64,000 nt of DNA from a virus, in IMG/VR virus record IMGVR_UViG_3300046698_000540, positions 36,370-100,369 of that record, one strand, 5' to 3'. The notes under the pieces are model-generated. The model was not told the DNA's origin, made no database searches, and saw only the letters and a program-made list of their open reading frames with translations. The position numbers were made by a program, and so were the translations under genes. Of the stretch, positions 37,896-45,067 are shown piece after piece. Each line of letters starts with the position of its first letter. The stretch's first letter is position 1.

Positions 37896-37926
37896 CTGTT
37901 TTGTCCCGGCCTTTCTCCGGGGGCTA

Positions 37927-37980
37927 TCGCCTACACGTCTCGTGTTTCGACTCGGAGCCTCCGAATCCTCTTCAGGGCGA
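37927..37980 (-). ncRNA. Type I hammerhead ribozyme A
   Basis: UCGCC CUGAAGA G GAUUCGG-AGGCU-CCGAGUC GAAA CACG-AGA-CGUG UA^GGCGA. Confidence 0.85.
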
Positions 37981-38016
37981 AAAATTCCTGGCCGGGGCAT
38001 GGCGTCCCCGGCCAGG
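37981..38016 (-). terminator. Terminator-like hairpin upstream of ribozyme A
   Basis: 11-bp stem CCUGGCCGGGG/CCCCGGCCAGG then AAUUUUU. Confidence 0.55.
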
Positions 38017-38042: not shown

Positions 38043-38930
38043 CTACGCCGCGGACGTGGGAGCGGAGGGAAACAAACTCTGTTGCTGTTTGGCGGGTTTG
38101 GGAGCATTCGGAATCGCCTTCCGGGATACTACCGCCTTGCGGTTCTCCTCAAAATCAGAGAGCTCGCCGGGTGTCGGCTTGCGCACCATCGCCAGCCGGC
38201 ATTTGTAAGTGCTGTCCGTGTATTCTCCGCTGTTGCTCCGGATCAGCTCCACAGTCTCCACGGCATACGCCGGATCCTCGCCCTCCTCCAGGTAGTCGGG
38301 ATTATAGGTCACCACTTTGAAGTGGCCGTCCTTCCCGATCTCCTGGACTTGCGCGAGAACCACACCGGGCGCCCAATCCCCGTCCCCCGTAACTTTGGGG
38401 TACACGAGCGCGGCCACGTCGCCTACCTTGAGGGCGGCTTTGTCCGGCGAACGCTGCGCCGAACTGGACCGGATGCCTTCGAGAGCATCCCGCTGCTCCT
38501 TATTGGGCCGTTTCACTATCACTACGCGCTCATCGTTGGCATCGATGATCTCAGTGCTGACCCCCCGGCCATTTTCGCGCCGCTTGGTCAACCTCTCCGC
38601 CACTTTCAAAGAGCCTGCACGGGGCGGTTTGTTCGGGAACAGGAACTTGATTGACGCATCGGCGCCGTCCTGAGAAACGGTCACCACTTCCGCGCCATAC
38701 ACGCCGGGAATGCGCCCCGGCTCCATCGCGTACGCGACCGTAATCAGATCGCCCGCCCGTAGCCCTTTCAGCGTTGCCAGCGCCGGCAGAGTATCTGGTG
38801 GCGGAGTGGAATCCGTCGCCACGGGAACCACCTTGGGCGGCTCCTTTTTCTTGATTACCTTCTTCCCTTCCAGAGCGCCCACCAGTTTTGTGGCGAACTC
38901 CCCTTCCGGTTTTTTCTTTGCCATGTTCAT
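38043..38930 (-). CDS. Hypothetical protein
   Basis: Start MNMAKKK after GGAAAGGA hairpin. Confidence 0.65.
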   Translation of the reverse strand: MNMAKKKPEGEFATKLVGALEGKKVIKKKEPPKVVPVATDSTPPPDTLPALATLKGLRAGDLITVAYAMEPGRIPGVYGAEVVTVSQDGADASIKFLFPNKPPRAGSLKVAERLTKRRENGRGVSTEIIDANDERVVIVKRPNKEQRDALEGIRSSSAQRSPDKAALKVGDVAALVYPKVTGDGDWAPGVVLAQVQEIGKDGHFKVVTYNPDYLEEGEDPAYAVETVELIRSNSGEYTDSTYKCRLAMVRKPTPGELSDFEENRKAVVSRKAIPNAPKPAKQQQSLFPSAPTSAA

Positions 38931-38966
38931 CAGGGGTCCTTTCCACCCCAGACTGCTGCCTTCGAA

Positions 38967-39054
38967 TCGCAGCCGTCTCTTGGGCGCGCTCGACGTGTTC
39001 CTCGCCGAGAGACTTTCGTCCGGGATGGGTCCCGCGCCCAAGACGCGGCTGCGA
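38967..39054 (-). ncRNA. Unknown multi-stem structured RNA element
   Basis: Long closing stem UCGCAGCCG..UCUUGGGCGCG / CGCGCCCAAGA..CGGCUGCGA enclosing three hairpins, one with a GAAA tetraloop. Confidence 0.55.
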
Positions 39055-39071
39055 ACCGCGCCACTACCTGC

Positions 39072-40420: not shown

Positions 40421-40441
40421 CGCGTCCTTTCTCCGCGAGGC

Positions 40442-40506
40442 TTTCGCCTACCTCCCTGTGCGGGAGGTTTCGAGCCGGCGCCCACCGGCCCATCTTCAGG
40501 ACGAAA
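40442..40506 (-). ncRNA. Type I hammerhead ribozyme C
   Basis: UUUCGUC CUGAAGA UG GGCCGG-UGGGCG-CCGGCU C GAAA CCUCCC-GCACA-GGGAGG UA^GGCGAAA. Confidence 0.88.
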
Positions 40507-40834
40507 TTTCCGCTCTTGTGTCTCCCAAGATCGTGATTGAGCTGTGGGTTTCCTTCCATGCAACCGCAGCCACATGAAAGCTCTTCAGCCTATCGATCTG
40601 TTGCGTGACCCAGAACGCTTGCGTTTCCAATCCTACTTGCATATACATGGTCAGCAGGATATGCGTTCCTTTCAACACCATCCCCCGATCCGCGAACCTG
40701 CCTTCTACCGCCATGGGGGGCCGCCCGGTGTGCATGATGCTGTAAACACTCACGACCCCGGCGTACCGCAAATACTCGGTCACCACGGCGCCCGGATCGG
40801 GCACCAGCATGGTGATAGCCACTCTTGTTGCCAT
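40496..40834 (-). CDS. Hypothetical protein
   Basis: Between ribozymes D and C; stop codon lies in the CUGA core of C. Confidence 0.6.
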   Translation of the reverse strand: MATRVAITMLVPDPGAVVTEYLRYAGVVSVYSIMHTGRPPMAVEGRFADRGMVLKGTHILLTMYMQVGLETQAFWVTQQIDRLKSFHVAAVAWKETHSSITILGDTRAEISS

Positions 40835-40862
40835 TTTTCAAAGGCTCCTTTCCAGCCTAGCT

Positions 40863-40929
40863 TTCGCCTATGGCGGGCCTCCCGGCCGGCCATTTCGACC
40901 TGGAGCCACCAGGTTCTCTTCGGGGCGAA
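40863..40929 (-). ncRNA. Type I hammerhead ribozyme D (CCGAAGA core)
   Basis: UUCGCC CCGAAGA GA ACCUGG-UGGCU-CCAGGU CGAAA UGGC..GCCA UA^GGCGAA. Confidence 0.8.
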
Positions 40930-41274
40930 CTACTCCGTTTCTTCCCATGGCTTTTCGCCGGGCTCCTGGTACAGGGCCAGGCCACAAGAATTATGCAAAG
41001 CTTCCCACAACCGGTCGCCGCGGGCCAGCAACTCCTCCTTGGGTTGCAACTTCTTGTGATTCCCAACAAAGCCTTGTTCCTCGGGAGTCGTTTGATCCAT
41101 TGCATCTCCTGCCTGTTCCAGCAGCTCCGCCATGTAGGTTTGCGCGTCATCCCATTCTGCGAGAGACCGGGCCGCCATCATCACCAATGACAGGCGCGCG
41201 ATCGATCTAGCCCAGGTTCTCAGCTTTACAAGCGTGATTTGGGCATTCGTCAATTCTGTTGGTATTGTTGCCAT
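40930..41274 (-). CDS. Hypothetical protein
   Basis: Between ribozymes E and D. Confidence 0.65.
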   Translation of the reverse strand: MATIPTELTNAQITLVKLRTWARSIARLSLVMMAARSLAEWDDAQTYMAELLEQAGDAMDQTTPEEQGFVGNHKKLQPKEELLARGDRLWEALHNSCGLALYQEPGEKPWEETE

Positions 41275-41300
41275 TTCAAAGCTCCTTTCCAGCTTGGCTT

Positions 41301-41359
41301 TCGCCTACCGGCTGTAGAGGCCGGTTTCATCCGGGCGCCGCCCGAACTCTTCAGGACGA
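41301..41359 (-). ncRNA. Type I hammerhead ribozyme E
   Basis: UCGUC CUGAAGA G UUCGGG-CGGCG-CCCGGA U GAAA CCGGC-CUCUACA-GCCGG UA^GGCGA. Confidence 0.88.
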
Positions 41360-41827
41360 TTACAAGGTGTCCGCAGCGTTTCCTTCAGGATCATCTCCAG
41401 CGAAAAACGCTCTCTGGCCCTCCAGTTTCGCCAGAGTCTTCCGCTGTTCCTCCACTTCGATCCCAACACCCTGCTTGCCGTACAGCCAAGCAATCACCAG
41501 TTCCAACGATGCGTCCTCGTAACACATCTCCTGGTGGTTCACCGGCACGGCATAGAACCTGCTGGCCCCCACTTTGTACACCATGCCGATCCCCTGCTCG
41601 CCTGGATGTAGACGCACCTCGTAGCAGGGCGCCAGTAGCAGGTTTATGCCGTGATACCTGGCGGGGATTGCCAACAGGCGATTTTGCATCTGCTTTTCCG
41701 CCCGTGCCAGTTCCTCGGATTCCAACTGCGCTTCGTTTCGTTTTGCCATTGCTTTCTCACTCCTGTCCAAATATGCCAGCAGATCGGTCCGATTCCGTTC
41801 GCAATGATCTTCAAATTCGACCATCAT
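41360..41827 (-). CDS. Hypothetical protein
   Basis: Between ribozymes F and E. Confidence 0.65.
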   Translation of the reverse strand: MMVEFEDHCERNRTDLLAYLDRSEKAMAKRNEAQLESEELARAEKQMQNRLLAIPARYHGINLLLAPCYEVRLHPGEQGIGMVYKVGASRFYAVPVNHQEMCYEDASLELVIAWLYGKQGVGIEVEEQRKTLAKLEGQRAFFAGDDPEGNAADTL

Positions 41828-41858
41828 AATCTTTTAGCCGGTCCTTTCCACCGGAGCT

Positions 41859-41918
41859 TTCGCCGACCGCCTTGTCTGGCGGTTTCGTCCCTGCGCTACA
41901 GGAACTCATCGGGGCGAA
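41859..41918 (-). ncRNA. Type I hammerhead ribozyme F (CCGAUGA core)
   Basis: UUCGCC CCGAUGA G UUCCUG-UAGCG-CAGGGA C GAAA CCGCC-AGACAA-GGCGG UC^GGCGAA. Confidence 0.82.
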
Positions 41919-42109
41919 TTTCTTTCCTCTTCATTTTCCCGGAGAGCCTTGTCGAATTCACTATTGCGTTTAGCTCTCTCGGAGGTAGCTTCTCGCCAAA
42001 CATGCCTGTCAGTTTGCGAGGCATTTGGATGCTCAAGACTATCCAGGATTGCAAACGCAATAACGAAGACAAAAAGCCCAAGCCAGCAGAGTTTCATTTC
42101 ACGTTTCAT
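41906..42109 (-). CDS. Small membrane-anchored protein
   Basis: MKREMKLCWLGLFVFVIAFAIL; stop codon lies in the core of ribozyme F. Confidence 0.6.
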   Translation of the reverse strand: MKREMKLCWLGLFVFVIAFAILDSLEHPNASQTDRHVWREATSERAKRNSEFDKALRENEEERNSPR

Positions 42110-42132
42110 AAGAGCTCCTTTCAAGCCCAGCT

Positions 42133-42194
42133 TTCGCCTATCCCCCTGAGCGGGGGATTTCGGCCGGAAGCCATCCGGCCATCATCGGGGCGAA
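42133..42194 (-). ncRNA. Type I hammerhead ribozyme G (CCGAUGA core)
   Basis: UUCGCC CCGAUGA U GGCCGGA-UGGCU-UCCGGCC GAAA UCCCCC-GCUCA-GGGGGA UA^GGCGAA. Confidence 0.82.
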
Positions 42195-42581
42195 CTACCA
42201 TTCCAGGTTGTTGAGCGCCGCCAGTACCATAACCTCGACCGGGGTCAACGCCACCACAAAGACGTCCACCACGATAGCGCCCTGGAGCGCTTCGTGATGC
42301 TGGCCGCCGATCGCGTGTTCCTTCAGCGGTTCCACCAGATCCTCCAGGCGGATTTTTTCCTGGACGGGAAGACGATTCCTGGTATCCTTCACCAGCGCCT
42401 GACCCGTGCCCAATCCCAATCGGCAGCCCAGGCCGTCGAAATGCACCTGGCACAGGTTTGCCCAGCACATGCCGCCCCATCCGGGGAGCTTCGCGCTGTA
42501 CAACGCCGGCGTCTGTTGATCCTCCGCCCTGCACACATCGCAGTCCGGACGCTCTCTCACCATCACTTTATTGTTTGCCAT
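42195..42581 (-). CDS. Zinc-finger domain protein
   Basis: CDVC...WANLCQVHF...LGLGTGQ, same domain as 39341..40072. Confidence 0.65.
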   Translation of the reverse strand: MANNKVMVRERPDCDVCRAEDQQTPALYSAKLPGWGGMCWANLCQVHFDGLGCRLGLGTGQALVKDTRNRLPVQEKIRLEDLVEPLKEHAIGGQHHEALQGAIVVDVFVVALTPVEVMVLAALNNLEW

Positions 42582-42614
42582 GTTCGTTTGATTCGGCTCC
42601 TTTCCAGCCGGGCT

Positions 42615-42681
42615 TTCGCCTATGCCCCCTACTTCTTGGGGGCATTTCGCTTCCGCGCCACGGAAGCCTCTTCAGGGCGAA
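42615..42681 (-). ncRNA. Type I hammerhead ribozyme H
   Basis: UUCGCC CUGAAGA G GCUUCCG-UGGCG-CGGAAGC GAAA UGCCCCC-8nt-GGGGGCA UA^GGCGAA. Confidence 0.9.
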
Positions 42682-42778
42682 GATTCTCTCTGCGCGCCCA
42701 AAAAAATCCGGCCACGCAGGAGCACTACCTGGGCACCACACCGGCATGTGGCCGATGTCCCGCATACGCAGGGCCGGA

Positions 42779-43009
42779 TCATGCCGCGTTCTCGAAATGG
42801 AACCGCTCGCTGCGGCTGTAGCCCGGCCGCGGATTCCTGACCGTCCACGAGCCGTCCGCCTTCTCGCGCAACATCGTGCGCAGCTTCGAAGGCCCTGACT
42901 GAACCCCAATGCTCAGGGCCCCGGTCGTAGTGGCGAAGGTGTTGAACTCCACTCCCATCGCGCGCAACATGTTCCGCAGAATTCTGTTCTGTCTCTGTAG
43001 TCTTTTCAT
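42779..43009 (-). CDS. Hypothetical protein
   Basis: Between ribozymes I and H. Confidence 0.6.
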   Translation of the reverse strand: MKRLQRQNRILRNMLRAMGVEFNTFATTTGALSIGVQSGPSKLRTMLREKADGSWTVRNPRPGYSRSERFHFENAA

Positions 43010-43043
43010 ATTCGTGTTTGTCTCATCCTTTCCATGAGGGCTT

Positions 43044-43111
43044 TCGCCTAACGGCCCGCCTCCTTTTCGGGCCGTTTTCGGGGAGTTGCCGACTCCCCAT
43101 CTTCAGGGCGA
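43044..43111 (-). ncRNA. Type I hammerhead ribozyme I
   Basis: UCGCC CUGAAGA U GGGGAGU-CGGCA-ACUCCCC GAAA ACGGCCCG-9nt-CGGGCCGU UA^GGCGA. Confidence 0.88.
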
Positions 43112-43891
43112 TTACGCGGCGGCCGACTGCTTCTCCGTGGCCGCTTCCCACTTCGCGTACACTTCCTCCCACGCGGCGTCCGCGCCAATTTCCTTGGCCT
43201 TCACCCGCGCTTCCTCCACCAGCTTCACGTGCGCCGGTTTCATCGACGACTTCCAGGTCGCCTCCGCCTTCTTCCGATCGCCCGCGGCCGCCAGCAACCC
43301 TTCCAGGTCCTTGGCGCCGTAGAACTCGATCGCGCCGTTGCCCAGCGGATCCGTGCACTCGACCGCGATCGGCGTCTTCTTCGCCGTCGTGCGCAGCCCA
43401 ACCACCGTGAACTCGTACGGGTACTGGGGATCCAGGTCGTCGTCCGGGTCGGGCACGTGATACTTACGCCCGAGCCATTCCGGATTCACACCCTCGAAGT
43501 CCTTCGCCCGCTCGATCCACAGCGTCTGCATCGAGGGAACCGGCGCGCCGGCTTCGTTCCGGTACACCAGGTCCACGGCCACATACGGCGCCGTAACCGC
43601 GAAGTCCTCGACCGCCACCTGACGGCTGCCGAGCGCCTGCTCCACGATCTTCTCGAAGTCTCCGTCCGCGATTCCCAGGTCCACCGAGAACCCAAGACTC
43701 ACGTACCCGGAGTCCGTCGCGTCGTCCGATTCCTCGACCTTCACCGAGACTTTCGCCCGCGCTACCAGAGTTTCCAGTTTTGCGAGGATCTCGGATCGAA
43801 TGGCGGCCGTCGTCGCTTCGTCGAACTTCACCGGCACGAATTGCGATTTTTCCGCGACTGCAACTGCTTCTTTTCTGTTCTTGTTTGCCAT
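43112..43891 (-). CDS. Hypothetical acidic protein
   Basis: 259 aa between ribozymes J and I; strongly G/C-ending codons. Confidence 0.7.
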   Translation of the reverse strand: MANKNRKEAVAVAEKSQFVPVKFDEATTAAIRSEILAKLETLVARAKVSVKVEESDDATDSGYVSLGFSVDLGIADGDFEKIVEQALGSRQVAVEDFAVTAPYVAVDLVYRNEAGAPVPSMQTLWIERAKDFEGVNPEWLGRKYHVPDPDDDLDPQYPYEFTVVGLRTTAKKTPIAVECTDPLGNGAIEFYGAKDLEGLLAAAGDRKKAEATWKSSMKPAHVKLVEEARVKAKEIGADAAWEEVYAKWEAATEKQSAAA

Positions 43892-43924
43892 AACGTTTGT
43901 AAACCCGTCCTTTCCACGGGGGCT

Positions 43925-43981
43925 TTCGCCGACGCCTCACGGCGTTTCGACCTGGCGCCACCAGGCCTTCATCGGGGCGAA
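43925..43981 (-). ncRNA. Type I hammerhead ribozyme J (CCGAUGA core)
   Basis: UUCGCC CCGAUGA A GGCCUGG-UGGCG-CCAGGUC GAAA CGCC-GUGA-GGCG UC^GGCGAA. Confidence 0.82.
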
Positions 43982-44383
43982 CTACTCTACGCTTGTGTGA
44001 ATCCGGTTGCACCGGCAGCCTGGGGAATCGCAGAACTCGCTTTCCGCGTCCGCTTCGCTCACCAGGTCCTTGAACTGAAGCGGCTCCGATTCCAGATCCT
44101 CGTCGTACACCGAGGCCACCTGGGCCATGGACGTTCTTGCATCCTCGGCCGCGCCTGGCAGCGAGTCGTACCCTGCGTCGGTCAGTTCGTTGATCCTGGT
44201 TTCGATCAACCCGTTTGGCCCCACCGGATCCATTTCTTCGGAAGTGCATCCCGTTTCCGGATCCGTCTCTTCGCGCAAAAAGTCCGCGGCCAAGACCTCA
44301 TCCTGCATTGCCTCCCGGCAGTCCTCGCAGGGCTCTTCCAAATGCTGGCAATCTTCGCAACGAACTACTATTCCTTTTGCCAT
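43982..44383 (-). CDS. Acidic Cys-motif protein
   Basis: Start MAKGIV; CEDC..CEDC and C-terminal Cys cluster; between ribozymes K and J. Confidence 0.65.
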   Translation of the reverse strand: MAKGIVVRCEDCQHLEEPCEDCREAMQDEVLAADFLREETDPETGCTSEEMDPVGPNGLIETRINELTDAGYDSLPGAAEDARTSMAQVASVYDEDLESEPLQFKDLVSEADAESEFCDSPGCRCNRIHTSVE

Positions 44384-44414
44384 ATCGTTCAACCAGGTCC
44401 TTTCCACCTGAGCT

Positions 44415-44480
44415 TTCGCCTATTCATGCCGTCTGGACATAAATTTCGGCCGGGCGCTGCCCAGCCATCTTCAGGACGAA
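44415..44480 (-). ncRNA. Type I hammerhead ribozyme K
   Basis: UUCGUC CUGAAGA U GGCUGGG-CAGCG-CCCGGCC GAAA UUUAUGUC-CAGAC-GGCAUGAA UA^GGCGAA. Confidence 0.88.
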
Positions 44481-45038: not shown

Positions 45039-45067
45039 AGTATAGTATATCGTTGGGTATTTGTAAA
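45039..45067 (-). promoter_or_regulatory. Strong sigma70-like early promoter
   Basis: TTTACA-17 bp-TATACT; near-identical copy at 49759..49787. Confidence 0.85.

What the first reader, a model, noticed from the sequence alone, without database searches (positions are those of the whole stretch)
40430..44480. Covarying loop II / 3'-tail pseudoknot suggests selection for fast cleavage
Seen: loop II contains GGC where the sequence after stem I reads AAAGCC (C, E, H, I, J; A has AUAGCC), and AGC in the two copies followed by AAAGCUC (F: UAGCG, K: CAGCG); D and G use UGGCU against AGCUA/AGCUG with wobbles. Established: natural hammerheads use a stem I-loop II tertiary contact for activity at physiological Mg2+. 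Inference: compensatory change among paralogs means these are maintained catalysts, not decayed repeats.
Basis: partly seen in the sequence, partly recalled or inferred. Interest (0 to 1): 0.75.

Follow-up and report, generated by a model that had tools for sequence, protein, structure and literature searches.

The report
Known-type pseudoknot in ten phage hammerheads
Ten self-cleaving hammerhead RNAs in a phage genome each carry a short extra pairing between one hairpin loop and the sequence just after the ribozyme; the pairing is real, but it is the tertiary contact already described for hammerheads in 2011, so this is a new example and not a new mechanism.

Summary
The sequence facts in the finding are all correct. 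The window is part of a 100-kb IMG/VR tailed-phage record. It holds exactly ten type I hammerheads, all on the minus strand, each directly upstream of a small gene of unknown function.

- **Pairing in the window:** in all ten, loop II carries RGC and the tail after stem I (GGCGA-A/U-A) carries GCY. The variable pair is G-C in six copies, A-U in two (F, K) and G-U in two (D, G).
- **Ten copies alone:** the covariation is not beyond chance (Fisher p = 0.13; 54 of 500 shuffles reach the score).
- **Wider family:** in 70 distinct phage hammerheads of the same family the pair is G-C 51, A-U 6, G-U 4, A-C 0 (p = 4e-6; 0 of 500 shuffles). Relatives with quite different pseudoknot sequences (UGGUU/AACCA, GGGC/GCCC, UGGUU/AACUA) also keep the pairing.
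- **"Maintained catalysts":** supported, but mainly by compensatory changes in stems II and III and by an intact core.
- **"Selection for fast cleavage":** untested. Six copies have only 3 pseudoknot pairs, and four carry C at core position 4.
- **Prior knowledge:** pseudoknotted type I hammerheads and multi-hammerhead arrays in prophages were described by Perreault et al. 2011.
- **New aside:** the same tail GCY can also pair with the first three bases of the cleavage product, forming a 5'-terminal GGC-GAAA-GCY hairpin.

The parts
37926..37981 (-). Hammerhead A (type I), core CUGAAGA. Loop II GGC at 37957-37959, tail GCC at 37922-37924. Cleavage between 37932 and 37931. 4-bp pseudoknot GGCU/AGCC.
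40443..40505 (-). Hammerhead C, core CUGAAGA. Loop II GGC at 40480-40482 (loop UGGGCG), tail GCC at 40439-40441. Cleavage between 40449 and 40448.
40863..40929 (-). Hammerhead D, core CCGAAGA (C at position 4). Loop UGGCU (GGC at 40905-40907), tail AGCUA (GCU at 40859-40861). 5-bp pseudoknot with one G-U. Cleavage between 40869 and 40868.
41300..41360 (-). Hammerhead E, core CUGAAGA. Loop GGC at 41337-41339, tail GCC at 41296-41298. Cleavage between 41306 and 41305.
41859..41918 (-). Hammerhead F, core CCGAUGA (C4). Loop UAGCG (AGC at 41895-41897), tail GCU at 41855-41857, giving the A-U compensatory pair. H17 = C. Cleavage between 41865 and 41864.
42133..42194 (-). Hammerhead G, core CCGAUGA (C4). 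Loop UGGCU (GGC at 42170-42172), tail AGCUG (GCU at 42129-42131). 5-bp pseudoknot with two G-U. Cleavage between 42139 and 42138.
42615..42681 (-). Hammerhead H, core CUGAAGA. Loop GGC at 42657-42659, tail GCC at 42611-42613. Cleavage between 42621 and 42620.
43043..43112 (-). Hammerhead I, core CUGAAGA. Loop CGGCA (GGC at 43088-43090), tail GCC at 43039-43041. Cleavage between 43049 and 43048.
43925..43981 (-). Hammerhead J, core CCGAUGA (C4). Loop GGC at 43957-43959, tail GCC at 43921-43923. H17 = C. Cleavage between 43931 and 43930.
44415..44480 (-). Hammerhead K, core CUGAAGA. Loop CAGCG (AGC at 44456-44458), tail GCU at 44411-44413, giving the A-U compensatory pair. Cleavage between 44421 and 44420.

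Best explanation
The ten elements are functional type I hammerhead ribozymes of a widespread phage family. The family consensus is stem I UCGCC/GGCGA, loop II UGGCU and tail AGCCA.

In the uncleaved transcript, the three to five bases that follow stem I on its 3' side pair with loop II. This pseudoknot extends stem I and holds stems I and II side by side. That arrangement is the tertiary contact a hammerhead needs to cleave quickly at cellular Mg2+.

Cleavage after U-A or U-C then releases each downstream gene on an RNA that begins GGCGAAAGCY, followed by a hairpin carrying the Shine-Dalgarno sequence.

**Shown here:** the sequences, the three-stem fold, the complementarity in all ten copies, and covariation of the pseudoknot across the family.

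**Inferred:** that the pseudoknot forms in vivo, that it sets the cleavage rate, and that the RNAs are in fact cut.
For: - Exactly ten model hits in the virus record, E 2e-16 to 1e-13.
- Hammerhead fold with 96.7% of cells paired, 14 of 21 pairs changed on both sides, 0 of 500 shuffles.
- Pseudoknot core pairs form in 10 of 10 copies.
- In 70 distinct family members the variable pair is G-C 51, A-U 6, G-U 4, U-A 1, unpaired 1, with 0 of 500 shuffles reaching the score. Fisher p = 3.8e-6.
- Three phages (the window, L010, L072) each hold both GGC/GCC and AGC/GCU paralogs.
- Relatives carry other pseudoknot sequences: L099 UGGUU/AACCA, L036 CGGCU/AGCCG, L095 GGCA/UGCC; L114 GGGC/GCCC, L116 UGGUU/AACUA, L087 GGCC/GGCC.
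- The model alignment did not include the pseudoknot, so it was not fitted to it.
- Published experiments show that pseudoknots in hammerheads, including type I, are needed for speed at 0.5 mM Mg2+ and that compensatory mutants rescue activity (PMC3088659; PMC10187678).
Against: - Among the ten copies alone the covariation is not significant.
- Six copies have only 3 pseudoknot pairs. Their loop flanks can close stem II into a triloop, as RNAfold predicts.
- Four copies have C at core position 4. From memory of minimal-hammerhead mutagenesis (Ruffner et al. 1990, not checked here), this lowers activity.
- The tail GCY can also pair with the first GGC of stem I's 3' strand. RNAfold prefers that hairpin to stem I in copies C, E and H.
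- No cleavage data exist for this phage.
Confidence: 0.8

Rival explanations
1. Dual-use tail (switch). GCY pairs with loop II before cleavage. After cleavage and strand release it pairs with the first three bases of the product. This forms a 5'-terminal GGC-GAAA-GCY tetraloop hairpin that directly abuts the Shine-Dalgarno hairpin. The refolding would make cleavage irreversible and give each mRNA a structured, 5'-OH-capped end. This extends the main explanation and does not replace it.
For: - In the free 3' products the hairpin is the predicted minimum-energy fold in 9 of 10 window copies and 6 of 6 copies of the relative G001. Pair probabilities are 0.7-1.0, and there are zero bases between it and the SD hairpin.
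- In the precursor it competes with stem I in C, E and H.
- G-U is tolerated in both pairings (D, G).
Against: - The evidence is thermodynamic prediction only.
- In the wider family the 'loop' base varies between A and U (GAAA versus GAUA), and some members have an extra base.
- L114, L116 and L087 keep the pseudoknot but cannot form such a hairpin. L099:604 breaks the hairpin but keeps the pseudoknot.
- GGC/GCC may recur simply because stem I and loop II are both G+C-rich.
Confidence: 0.25
2. No functional pseudoknot in this phage. Loop II RGC and tail GCY are each inherited or conserved for other reasons: the tail as part of the mRNA leader or 5' hairpin, the loop as a stable triloop closed by U-G or C-G. 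Their complementarity would be a family relic that no longer matters here.
For: - Window-only statistics are non-significant.
- Six loops are predicted as closed triloops.
- The pseudoknot is trimmed to 3 bp, below the family norm.
Against: - 10 of 10 copies, and 6 of 6 in the relative G001, keep the pairing although stems II and III have diverged completely.
- A in the loop occurs only with U in the tail: 2 of 2 here, 6 of 6 in the family, and A-C never.
Confidence: 0.1
3. Some or all copies are inactive or very slow relics, especially the four with CCGANGA. In that case the array is not a set of efficient processing sites.
For: U4 is normally invariant, yet 4 of 10 copies deviate. Rfam hammerhead models do not reach threshold on any copy.
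Against: - The C4 copies keep perfect stems, the pseudoknot (both 5-bp pseudoknots are in C4 copies) and all other core bases.
- C4 recurs in 4 of 6 hammerheads of the relative G001 and in 5 of 60 other family members, which argues it is tolerated.
- Rfam also misses the canonical family members.
Confidence: 0.1

Closest known systems
Pseudoknotted type I hammerheads (Perreault et al. 2011, PMC3088659: Yarrowia lipolytica, mouse-gut metagenome, human C10orf118; re-engineered in PMC10187678)
   Same: - Stem I is open.
- Loop II pairs with the single strand next to stem I.
- The pseudoknot replaces the loop-loop contact.
- In those papers it was shown to be needed at about 0.5 mM Mg2+, with compensatory rescue.
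   Different: - Here stem II is long (7-8 bp).
- The pseudoknot is only 3 bp in six of ten copies.
- Four copies have C4.
- No activity was measured here.
Multiple hammerheads flanking genes in prophages (Agrobacterium tumefaciens, Clostridium scindens, Azorhizobium caulinodans; PMC3088659)
   Same: Several hammerheads lie between single genes or short gene blocks of a phage transcript. The genes are of varied or unknown function.
   Different: - There are ten in 6.6 kb, against the tested arrangements of three.
- All ten share one standard leader: GGCGAAAGCY plus an SD hairpin.
[quoted passage not shown]
   Same: The same role: holding stems I and II parallel so the core is pre-organised (established knowledge; PMC3088659 introduction).
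   Different: Here the contact is made of Watson-Crick pairs with a 3' tail, not of non-canonical loop contacts.
RiboJ-type synthetic insulators (hammerhead plus downstream hairpin before the RBS; Lou et al. 2012, cited from memory, not checked here)
   Same: A ribozyme cuts off upstream RNA, and a hairpin follows before the ribosome-binding site.
   Different: This is a natural, repeated element. The SD lies in the hairpin loop. A second 5'-terminal hairpin is predicted.
Rfam hammerhead models (Hammerhead_1, Hammerhead_3, Hammerhead_II, HH9, HH10, RAGATH-1-hammerhead)
   Same: The same catalytic core and three-way junction.
   Different: - No copy reaches a gathering score.
- The only hit is RAGATH-1-hammerhead on copy F, at 23.6 bits against a 56.3-bit threshold.
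- Canonical members of this phage family are missed too.

Membership tests
Hammerhead ribozyme, type I | Three helices around one junction, stems II and III closed by loops, stem I open | tested here: met
   RNAalifold and pair counts on the ten copies give 96.7% of cells paired, 14 of 21 pairs changed on both sides, and 0 of 500 shuffles. Single-sequence minimum-energy folds recover the fold in 7 of 10 copies.
Hammerhead ribozyme, type I | Core C3, G5, A6, G8, A9, G12, A13, A14, the A15.1-U16.1 pair, and H17 not G | tested here: met
   All ten copies carry these bases. H17 is A in eight copies and C in F and J.
Hammerhead ribozyme, type I | U at core position 4 | tested here: not met
   Six copies have U. 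D, F, G and J have C (CCGANGA). The same variant occurs in 4 of 6 hammerheads of the relative G001 and in 5 of 60 other family members.
Hammerhead ribozyme, type I | Self-cleavage 3' of H17 | not testable with these tools
   Needs in vitro transcription or RNA end mapping.
Hammerhead ribozyme, type I | Reaches the gathering score of an Rfam hammerhead model | tested here: not met
   There are 0 hits at gathering score. At E <= 10 the only hit is RAGATH-1-hammerhead on copy F, at 23.6 of 56.3 bits. The models also miss canonical relatives, so this reflects model coverage.
Pseudoknotted hammerhead (Perreault 2011) | Complementarity between loop II and the strand adjoining stem I | tested here: met
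   All ten copies have at least 3 contiguous pairs in one register. A and C have 4; D and G have 5.
Pseudoknotted hammerhead (Perreault 2011) | Covariation supporting the pseudoknot | tested here: met
   - Family of 70 distinct sequences: 0 of 500 shuffles, Fisher p = 3.8e-6.
- Alternative pseudoknot sequences occur in L099, L114, L116 and L087.
- The window's ten copies alone are inconclusive: 54 of 500 shuffles, p = 0.13.
Pseudoknotted hammerhead (Perreault 2011) | Pseudoknot required for fast cleavage at physiological Mg2+ | not testable with these tools
   Needs kinetics of disrupt-and-rescue mutants.

The most novel reading that the evidence does not exclude
The tail trinucleotide GCY is a two-state element. 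Before cleavage it forms the loop II pseudoknot. That keeps it from pairing with the first GGC of stem I's 3' strand, and so favours the active fold. After cleavage it snaps onto that GGC and forms a 5'-terminal GNRA hairpin stacked on the SD hairpin. This would block religation and give every gene of the array the same nuclease-resistant, 5'-OH leader. Graded pseudoknot length (3 to 5 bp) and U4/C4 cores could then set different processing rates for different genes.
Probability: 0.2. Interest if true: 0.55.

Novelty: new member of a known kind. Interest (0 to 1): 0.3.

Why it matters
- It confirms that an unannotated phage contig holds ten intact hammerheads that Rfam-based annotation misses.
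- It gives a clean natural set of ten paralogs, plus six in a relative, that differ in pseudoknot length and in core position 4. That makes a ready-made series for testing how tertiary contacts and a U4C core tune cleavage.
- It does not change what is known about how hammerheads work.

Tried and rejected
- **Rfam.** Scans at gathering score and at E <= 10 gave no usable hit.
- **Window-only covariation.** Fixed register and free register were both non-significant, so the claim cannot rest on the ten paralogs.
- **Host search.** A leader-specific pattern scan of 185,579 prokaryote genomes gave 107 stretches. The 80 listed held no hammerhead by the model, so they are chance matches and no host clue emerged.
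- **Gene function.** Pfam and PHROGs on the ten flanked genes gave nothing except phrog_23287, of unknown function, for 42195-42581.
- **Hairpin-only explanation of tail conservation.** Rejected as sufficient, because L099:604, L114, L116 and L087 keep the pseudoknot without hairpin potential.
- **Sixth stem I pair and GNRA constraint across the family.** The alignment shows no consistent covariation.
- **Pseudoknot length versus C4.** Both 5-bp pseudoknots are in C4 copies here, but the pattern does not hold in G001.
- **A paper on a natural core variant (PMC7151607).** It concerns A6C, not U4C.
Full report
**What the DNA is.** The window is bases 36370-100369 of a single 100,369-bp linear IMG/VR virus record, estimated at about 80% complete. 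It encodes an SPP1-type portal protein, so it is a tailed phage. Almost all long reading frames, and all the elements discussed here, lie on the minus strand.

**The elements.**
- Reading the minus strand shows ten units with one plan:
  - stem I 5' strand (U)UCGYC;
  - core CYGANGA;
  - a 7-8-bp stem II with a 3-6-nt loop;
  - GAAA;
  - a variable stem III;
  - U-A or U-C;
  - stem I 3' strand GGCGA(A/U);
  - the tail A-G-C-Y;
  - a 5-bp hairpin whose loop is GGAAAGG (Shine-Dalgarno);
  - and a start codon, often ATGGCAA.
- This is a type I hammerhead.
Copy A lies at 37926-37981, outside the stated range. 'B' (about 38930-39064) has the SD hairpin but no hammerhead core.
- Rfam does not detect any copy at gathering score. 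With permissive settings the only hit is RAGATH-1-hammerhead on copy F, at 23.6 bits against a 56.3-bit threshold.
- A covariance model built here from 61 family members, without the pseudoknot (R1), finds exactly ten matches in the whole record, with E from 2e-16 to 1e-13.

**Are they maintained ribozymes?**
- Among the ten paralogs 96.7% of cells in stems I-III and the SD hairpin are paired.
- 14 of 21 pairs have changes on both sides.
- No shuffle of 500 reaches any cell-based measure, and sliding the partners by one column drops pairing to about 40%.
- All core positions are invariant except position 4, which is C in D, F, G and J.
- This is the main evidence against 'decayed repeats'.

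**The pseudoknot in the window.** Every statement in the finding is correct.

| Copies | Loop II | Tail | Pseudoknot |
|---|---|---|---|
| A | AGGCU | AUAGCC | 4 bp |
| C | UGGGCG | AAAGCC | 4 bp (one G-U) |
| E, H, I, J | GGC | AAAGCC | 3 bp |
| F, K | UAGCG, CAGCG | AAAGCUC | 3 bp, with the A-U pair |
| D, G | UGGCU | AGCUA, AGCUG | 5 bp with wobbles |

- In a fixed register the two inner pairs are invariant. The third is G-C 6, A-U 2, G-U 2, with no mismatch.
- The statistics on ten copies are weak. 54 of 500 shuffles reach the covariation score. Fisher's test on loop A/G against tail U/C gives p = 0.13. A free-register helix score equals its permuted value (3.45 against 3.43, p = 0.52).
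- On the window alone the covariation is therefore suggestive only.

**The pseudoknot in the family.**
- A degenerate pattern that fixes only stem I and the core, not loop II or the tail, was scanned over IMG/VR. It returned many single and multiple hammerheads of the same build.
- Aligning model hits from 100 sources gave 78 sequences, 70 of them distinct. The pseudoknot was not part of the model, so the alignment is not fitted to it.
- On this alignment the variable pair is G-C 51, A-U 6, G-U 4, U-A 1, unpaired 1.
- For the pseudoknot helix alone, 0 of 500 shuffles reach the observed fraction paired, the number of double changes or the covariation score.
- Fisher p is 3.8e-6 overall and 6e-5 without the window's copies. 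A-C never occurs.
- Three phages (this one, L010 and L072) each hold both GGC/GCC and AGC/GCU paralogs.
- Every pseudoknot position shows a compensatory example somewhere: L099:604 UGGUU/AACCA, L036 CGGCU/AGCCG, L095:3961 GGCA/UGCC.
- Hammerheads in the same loci with other stem I sequences carry quite different pseudoknots in the same place: L114 GGGC/GCCC, L116 UGGUU/AACUA, L087 GGCC/GGCC, L107 GCGGG/UCCGC.
- The free-register score for the family is 3.76 against 3.51 +/- 0.06 when permuted, with 0 of 2000 permutations as high.
- The pseudoknot is therefore real and selected. The family norm is 4-5 bp (UGGCU/AGCCA).

**A close relative.**
- IMG/VR record IMGVR_UViG_3300041809_001829 (27.7 kb, a fragment) has six hammerheads with the same leader and SD hairpin. 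It also has homologues of three of the window's proteins, at 41-60% identity.
- All six keep the loop II/tail pairing (3-5 bp), and four of the six have C4.

**Known or new?**
- Perreault et al. 2011 (PMC3088659) reported pseudoknots between stems I and II in about 40% of hammerheads of all three types.
- They showed that shortening or mutating the pseudoknot cuts the rate 20- to more than 100-fold at 0.5 mM Mg2+, and that compensatory mutation restores it.
- They also described several hammerheads flanking single genes in prophages, with cleavage in vitro and in E. coli.
- Najeh et al. [quoted passage not shown] - The finding is thus a new instance of a known contact in a known kind of arrangement.

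- In six of ten copies (C, E, F, H, J, K) the loop ends in G, and its first base is U or C. The flanks can therefore close stem II and leave a 3- or 4-nt loop, which is what RNAfold predicts. In these copies the pseudoknot cannot extend beyond 3 bp, or 4 in C. A loop-final G is rare in the family.
- Four copies have C4.
- Whether these units are fast, slow or graded is open.

**A second partner for the tail.**
- RNAfold on the full units replaces stem I by a local hairpin GGC-GAAA-GCC in copies C, E and H, and in the centroid structures of A and I.
- For the free 3' cleavage products the predicted fold is a 5'-terminal hairpin GGC-GAAA-GCY directly abutting the SD hairpin. This holds in 9 of 10 window copies and 6 of 6 copies in the relative, with pair probabilities of 0.7-1.0.
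- The tail is thus complementary both to loop II and to the first three bases of the product.
- This cannot by itself explain the data. It puts no constraint on loop II, and L099:604, L114, L116 and L087 keep the pseudoknot without it.
- It does suggest a switch: pseudoknot before cleavage, 5' hairpin after. I rate that at about 0.2-0.25. It rests on prediction only.

**Context.**
- A promoter-like site (TTTACA-17-TATACT) lies at 45067-45039 on the minus strand, upstream of copy K.
- A strong terminator-like hairpin (38016-37987) sits immediately 5' of copy A.
- By eye, a long hairpin followed by a run of seven T lies between gene I and hammerhead H, at about 42700-42775.
- The ten downstream genes have no Pfam match. 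One has a PHROG of unknown function.
- A leader-specific scan of prokaryote genomes gave only chance matches, so the host is unknown.

**Verdict.**
- Observation: correct.
- Pseudoknot: real.
- 'Maintained catalysts': supported, mostly by other evidence.
- 'Selected for fast cleavage': untested and somewhat doubtful for this phage's trimmed pseudoknots.
- Mechanism: already known.

Noticed in passing
window 40863-40929, 41859-41918, 42133-42194, 43925-43981 (-): Four of ten hammerheads have C in place of the normally invariant U4 (CCGANGA). The same variant is in 4 of 6 hammerheads of the relative G001 (L164) and in 5 of 60 other family members (L022, L032, L065, L093, L094). I did not find U4C among the natural core variants discussed in PMC3088659 section 8.
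   Followed up: partly
window: first 10 nt of each 3' product, e.g. 43921-43930, 42611-42620 (-): The product 5' end GGCGAAAGCY is predicted to fold into a 3-bp GAAA-tetraloop hairpin flush with the SD hairpin. This holds in 9 of 10 copies here and 6 of 6 in G001. In the precursor the hairpin competes with stem I in copies C, E and H.
   Followed up: partly
window 38930-39064 (-): The slot before ORF 38043-38930 holds a structured RNA with the standard SD hairpin but no hammerhead core and no Rfam ribozyme match at E <= 10. The relative G001 conserves only its last hairpin and the SD hairpin (alignment A5).
   Followed up: partly
window 37987-38016 (-) and about 42700-42775 (-): Terminator-like hairpins with T runs lie inside the array. 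One is immediately 5' of hammerhead A, and its T run forms part of stem I's 5' flank. One lies between gene I and hammerhead H.
   Followed up: no
window 45039-45067 (-): A sigma-70-like promoter match (TTTACA, 17 nt, TATACT; 10 of 12) lies about 560 nt upstream of the first hammerhead K.
   Followed up: no
L068:1870-1925 and 2315-2370; L045:1404-1456; L072:1318-1377 and 1810-1867: Phage loci that carry this hammerhead family also carry twister-P5 ribozymes within a few hundred bases. These were Rfam hits above gathering score. The window itself has none.
   Followed up: no
L045, L072, L013, L108, L044, L033, L010, L155, L099, L068: Rfam 15 hammerhead models miss every canonical member of this type I pseudoknotted phage family at gathering score. 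The only hammerhead hit was an unrelated Hammerhead_3 in L010. A dedicated model would be needed for annotation.
   Followed up: partly
window loops of C, E, H, J (e.g. 42656-42659, 43956-43959) (-): Loop II in four copies reads GGCG, identical to the first four bases of stem I's 3' strand. After cleavage it could therefore pair with the freed CGCC or CGUC of stem I's 5' strand on the upstream product. This is speculative.
   Followed up: no
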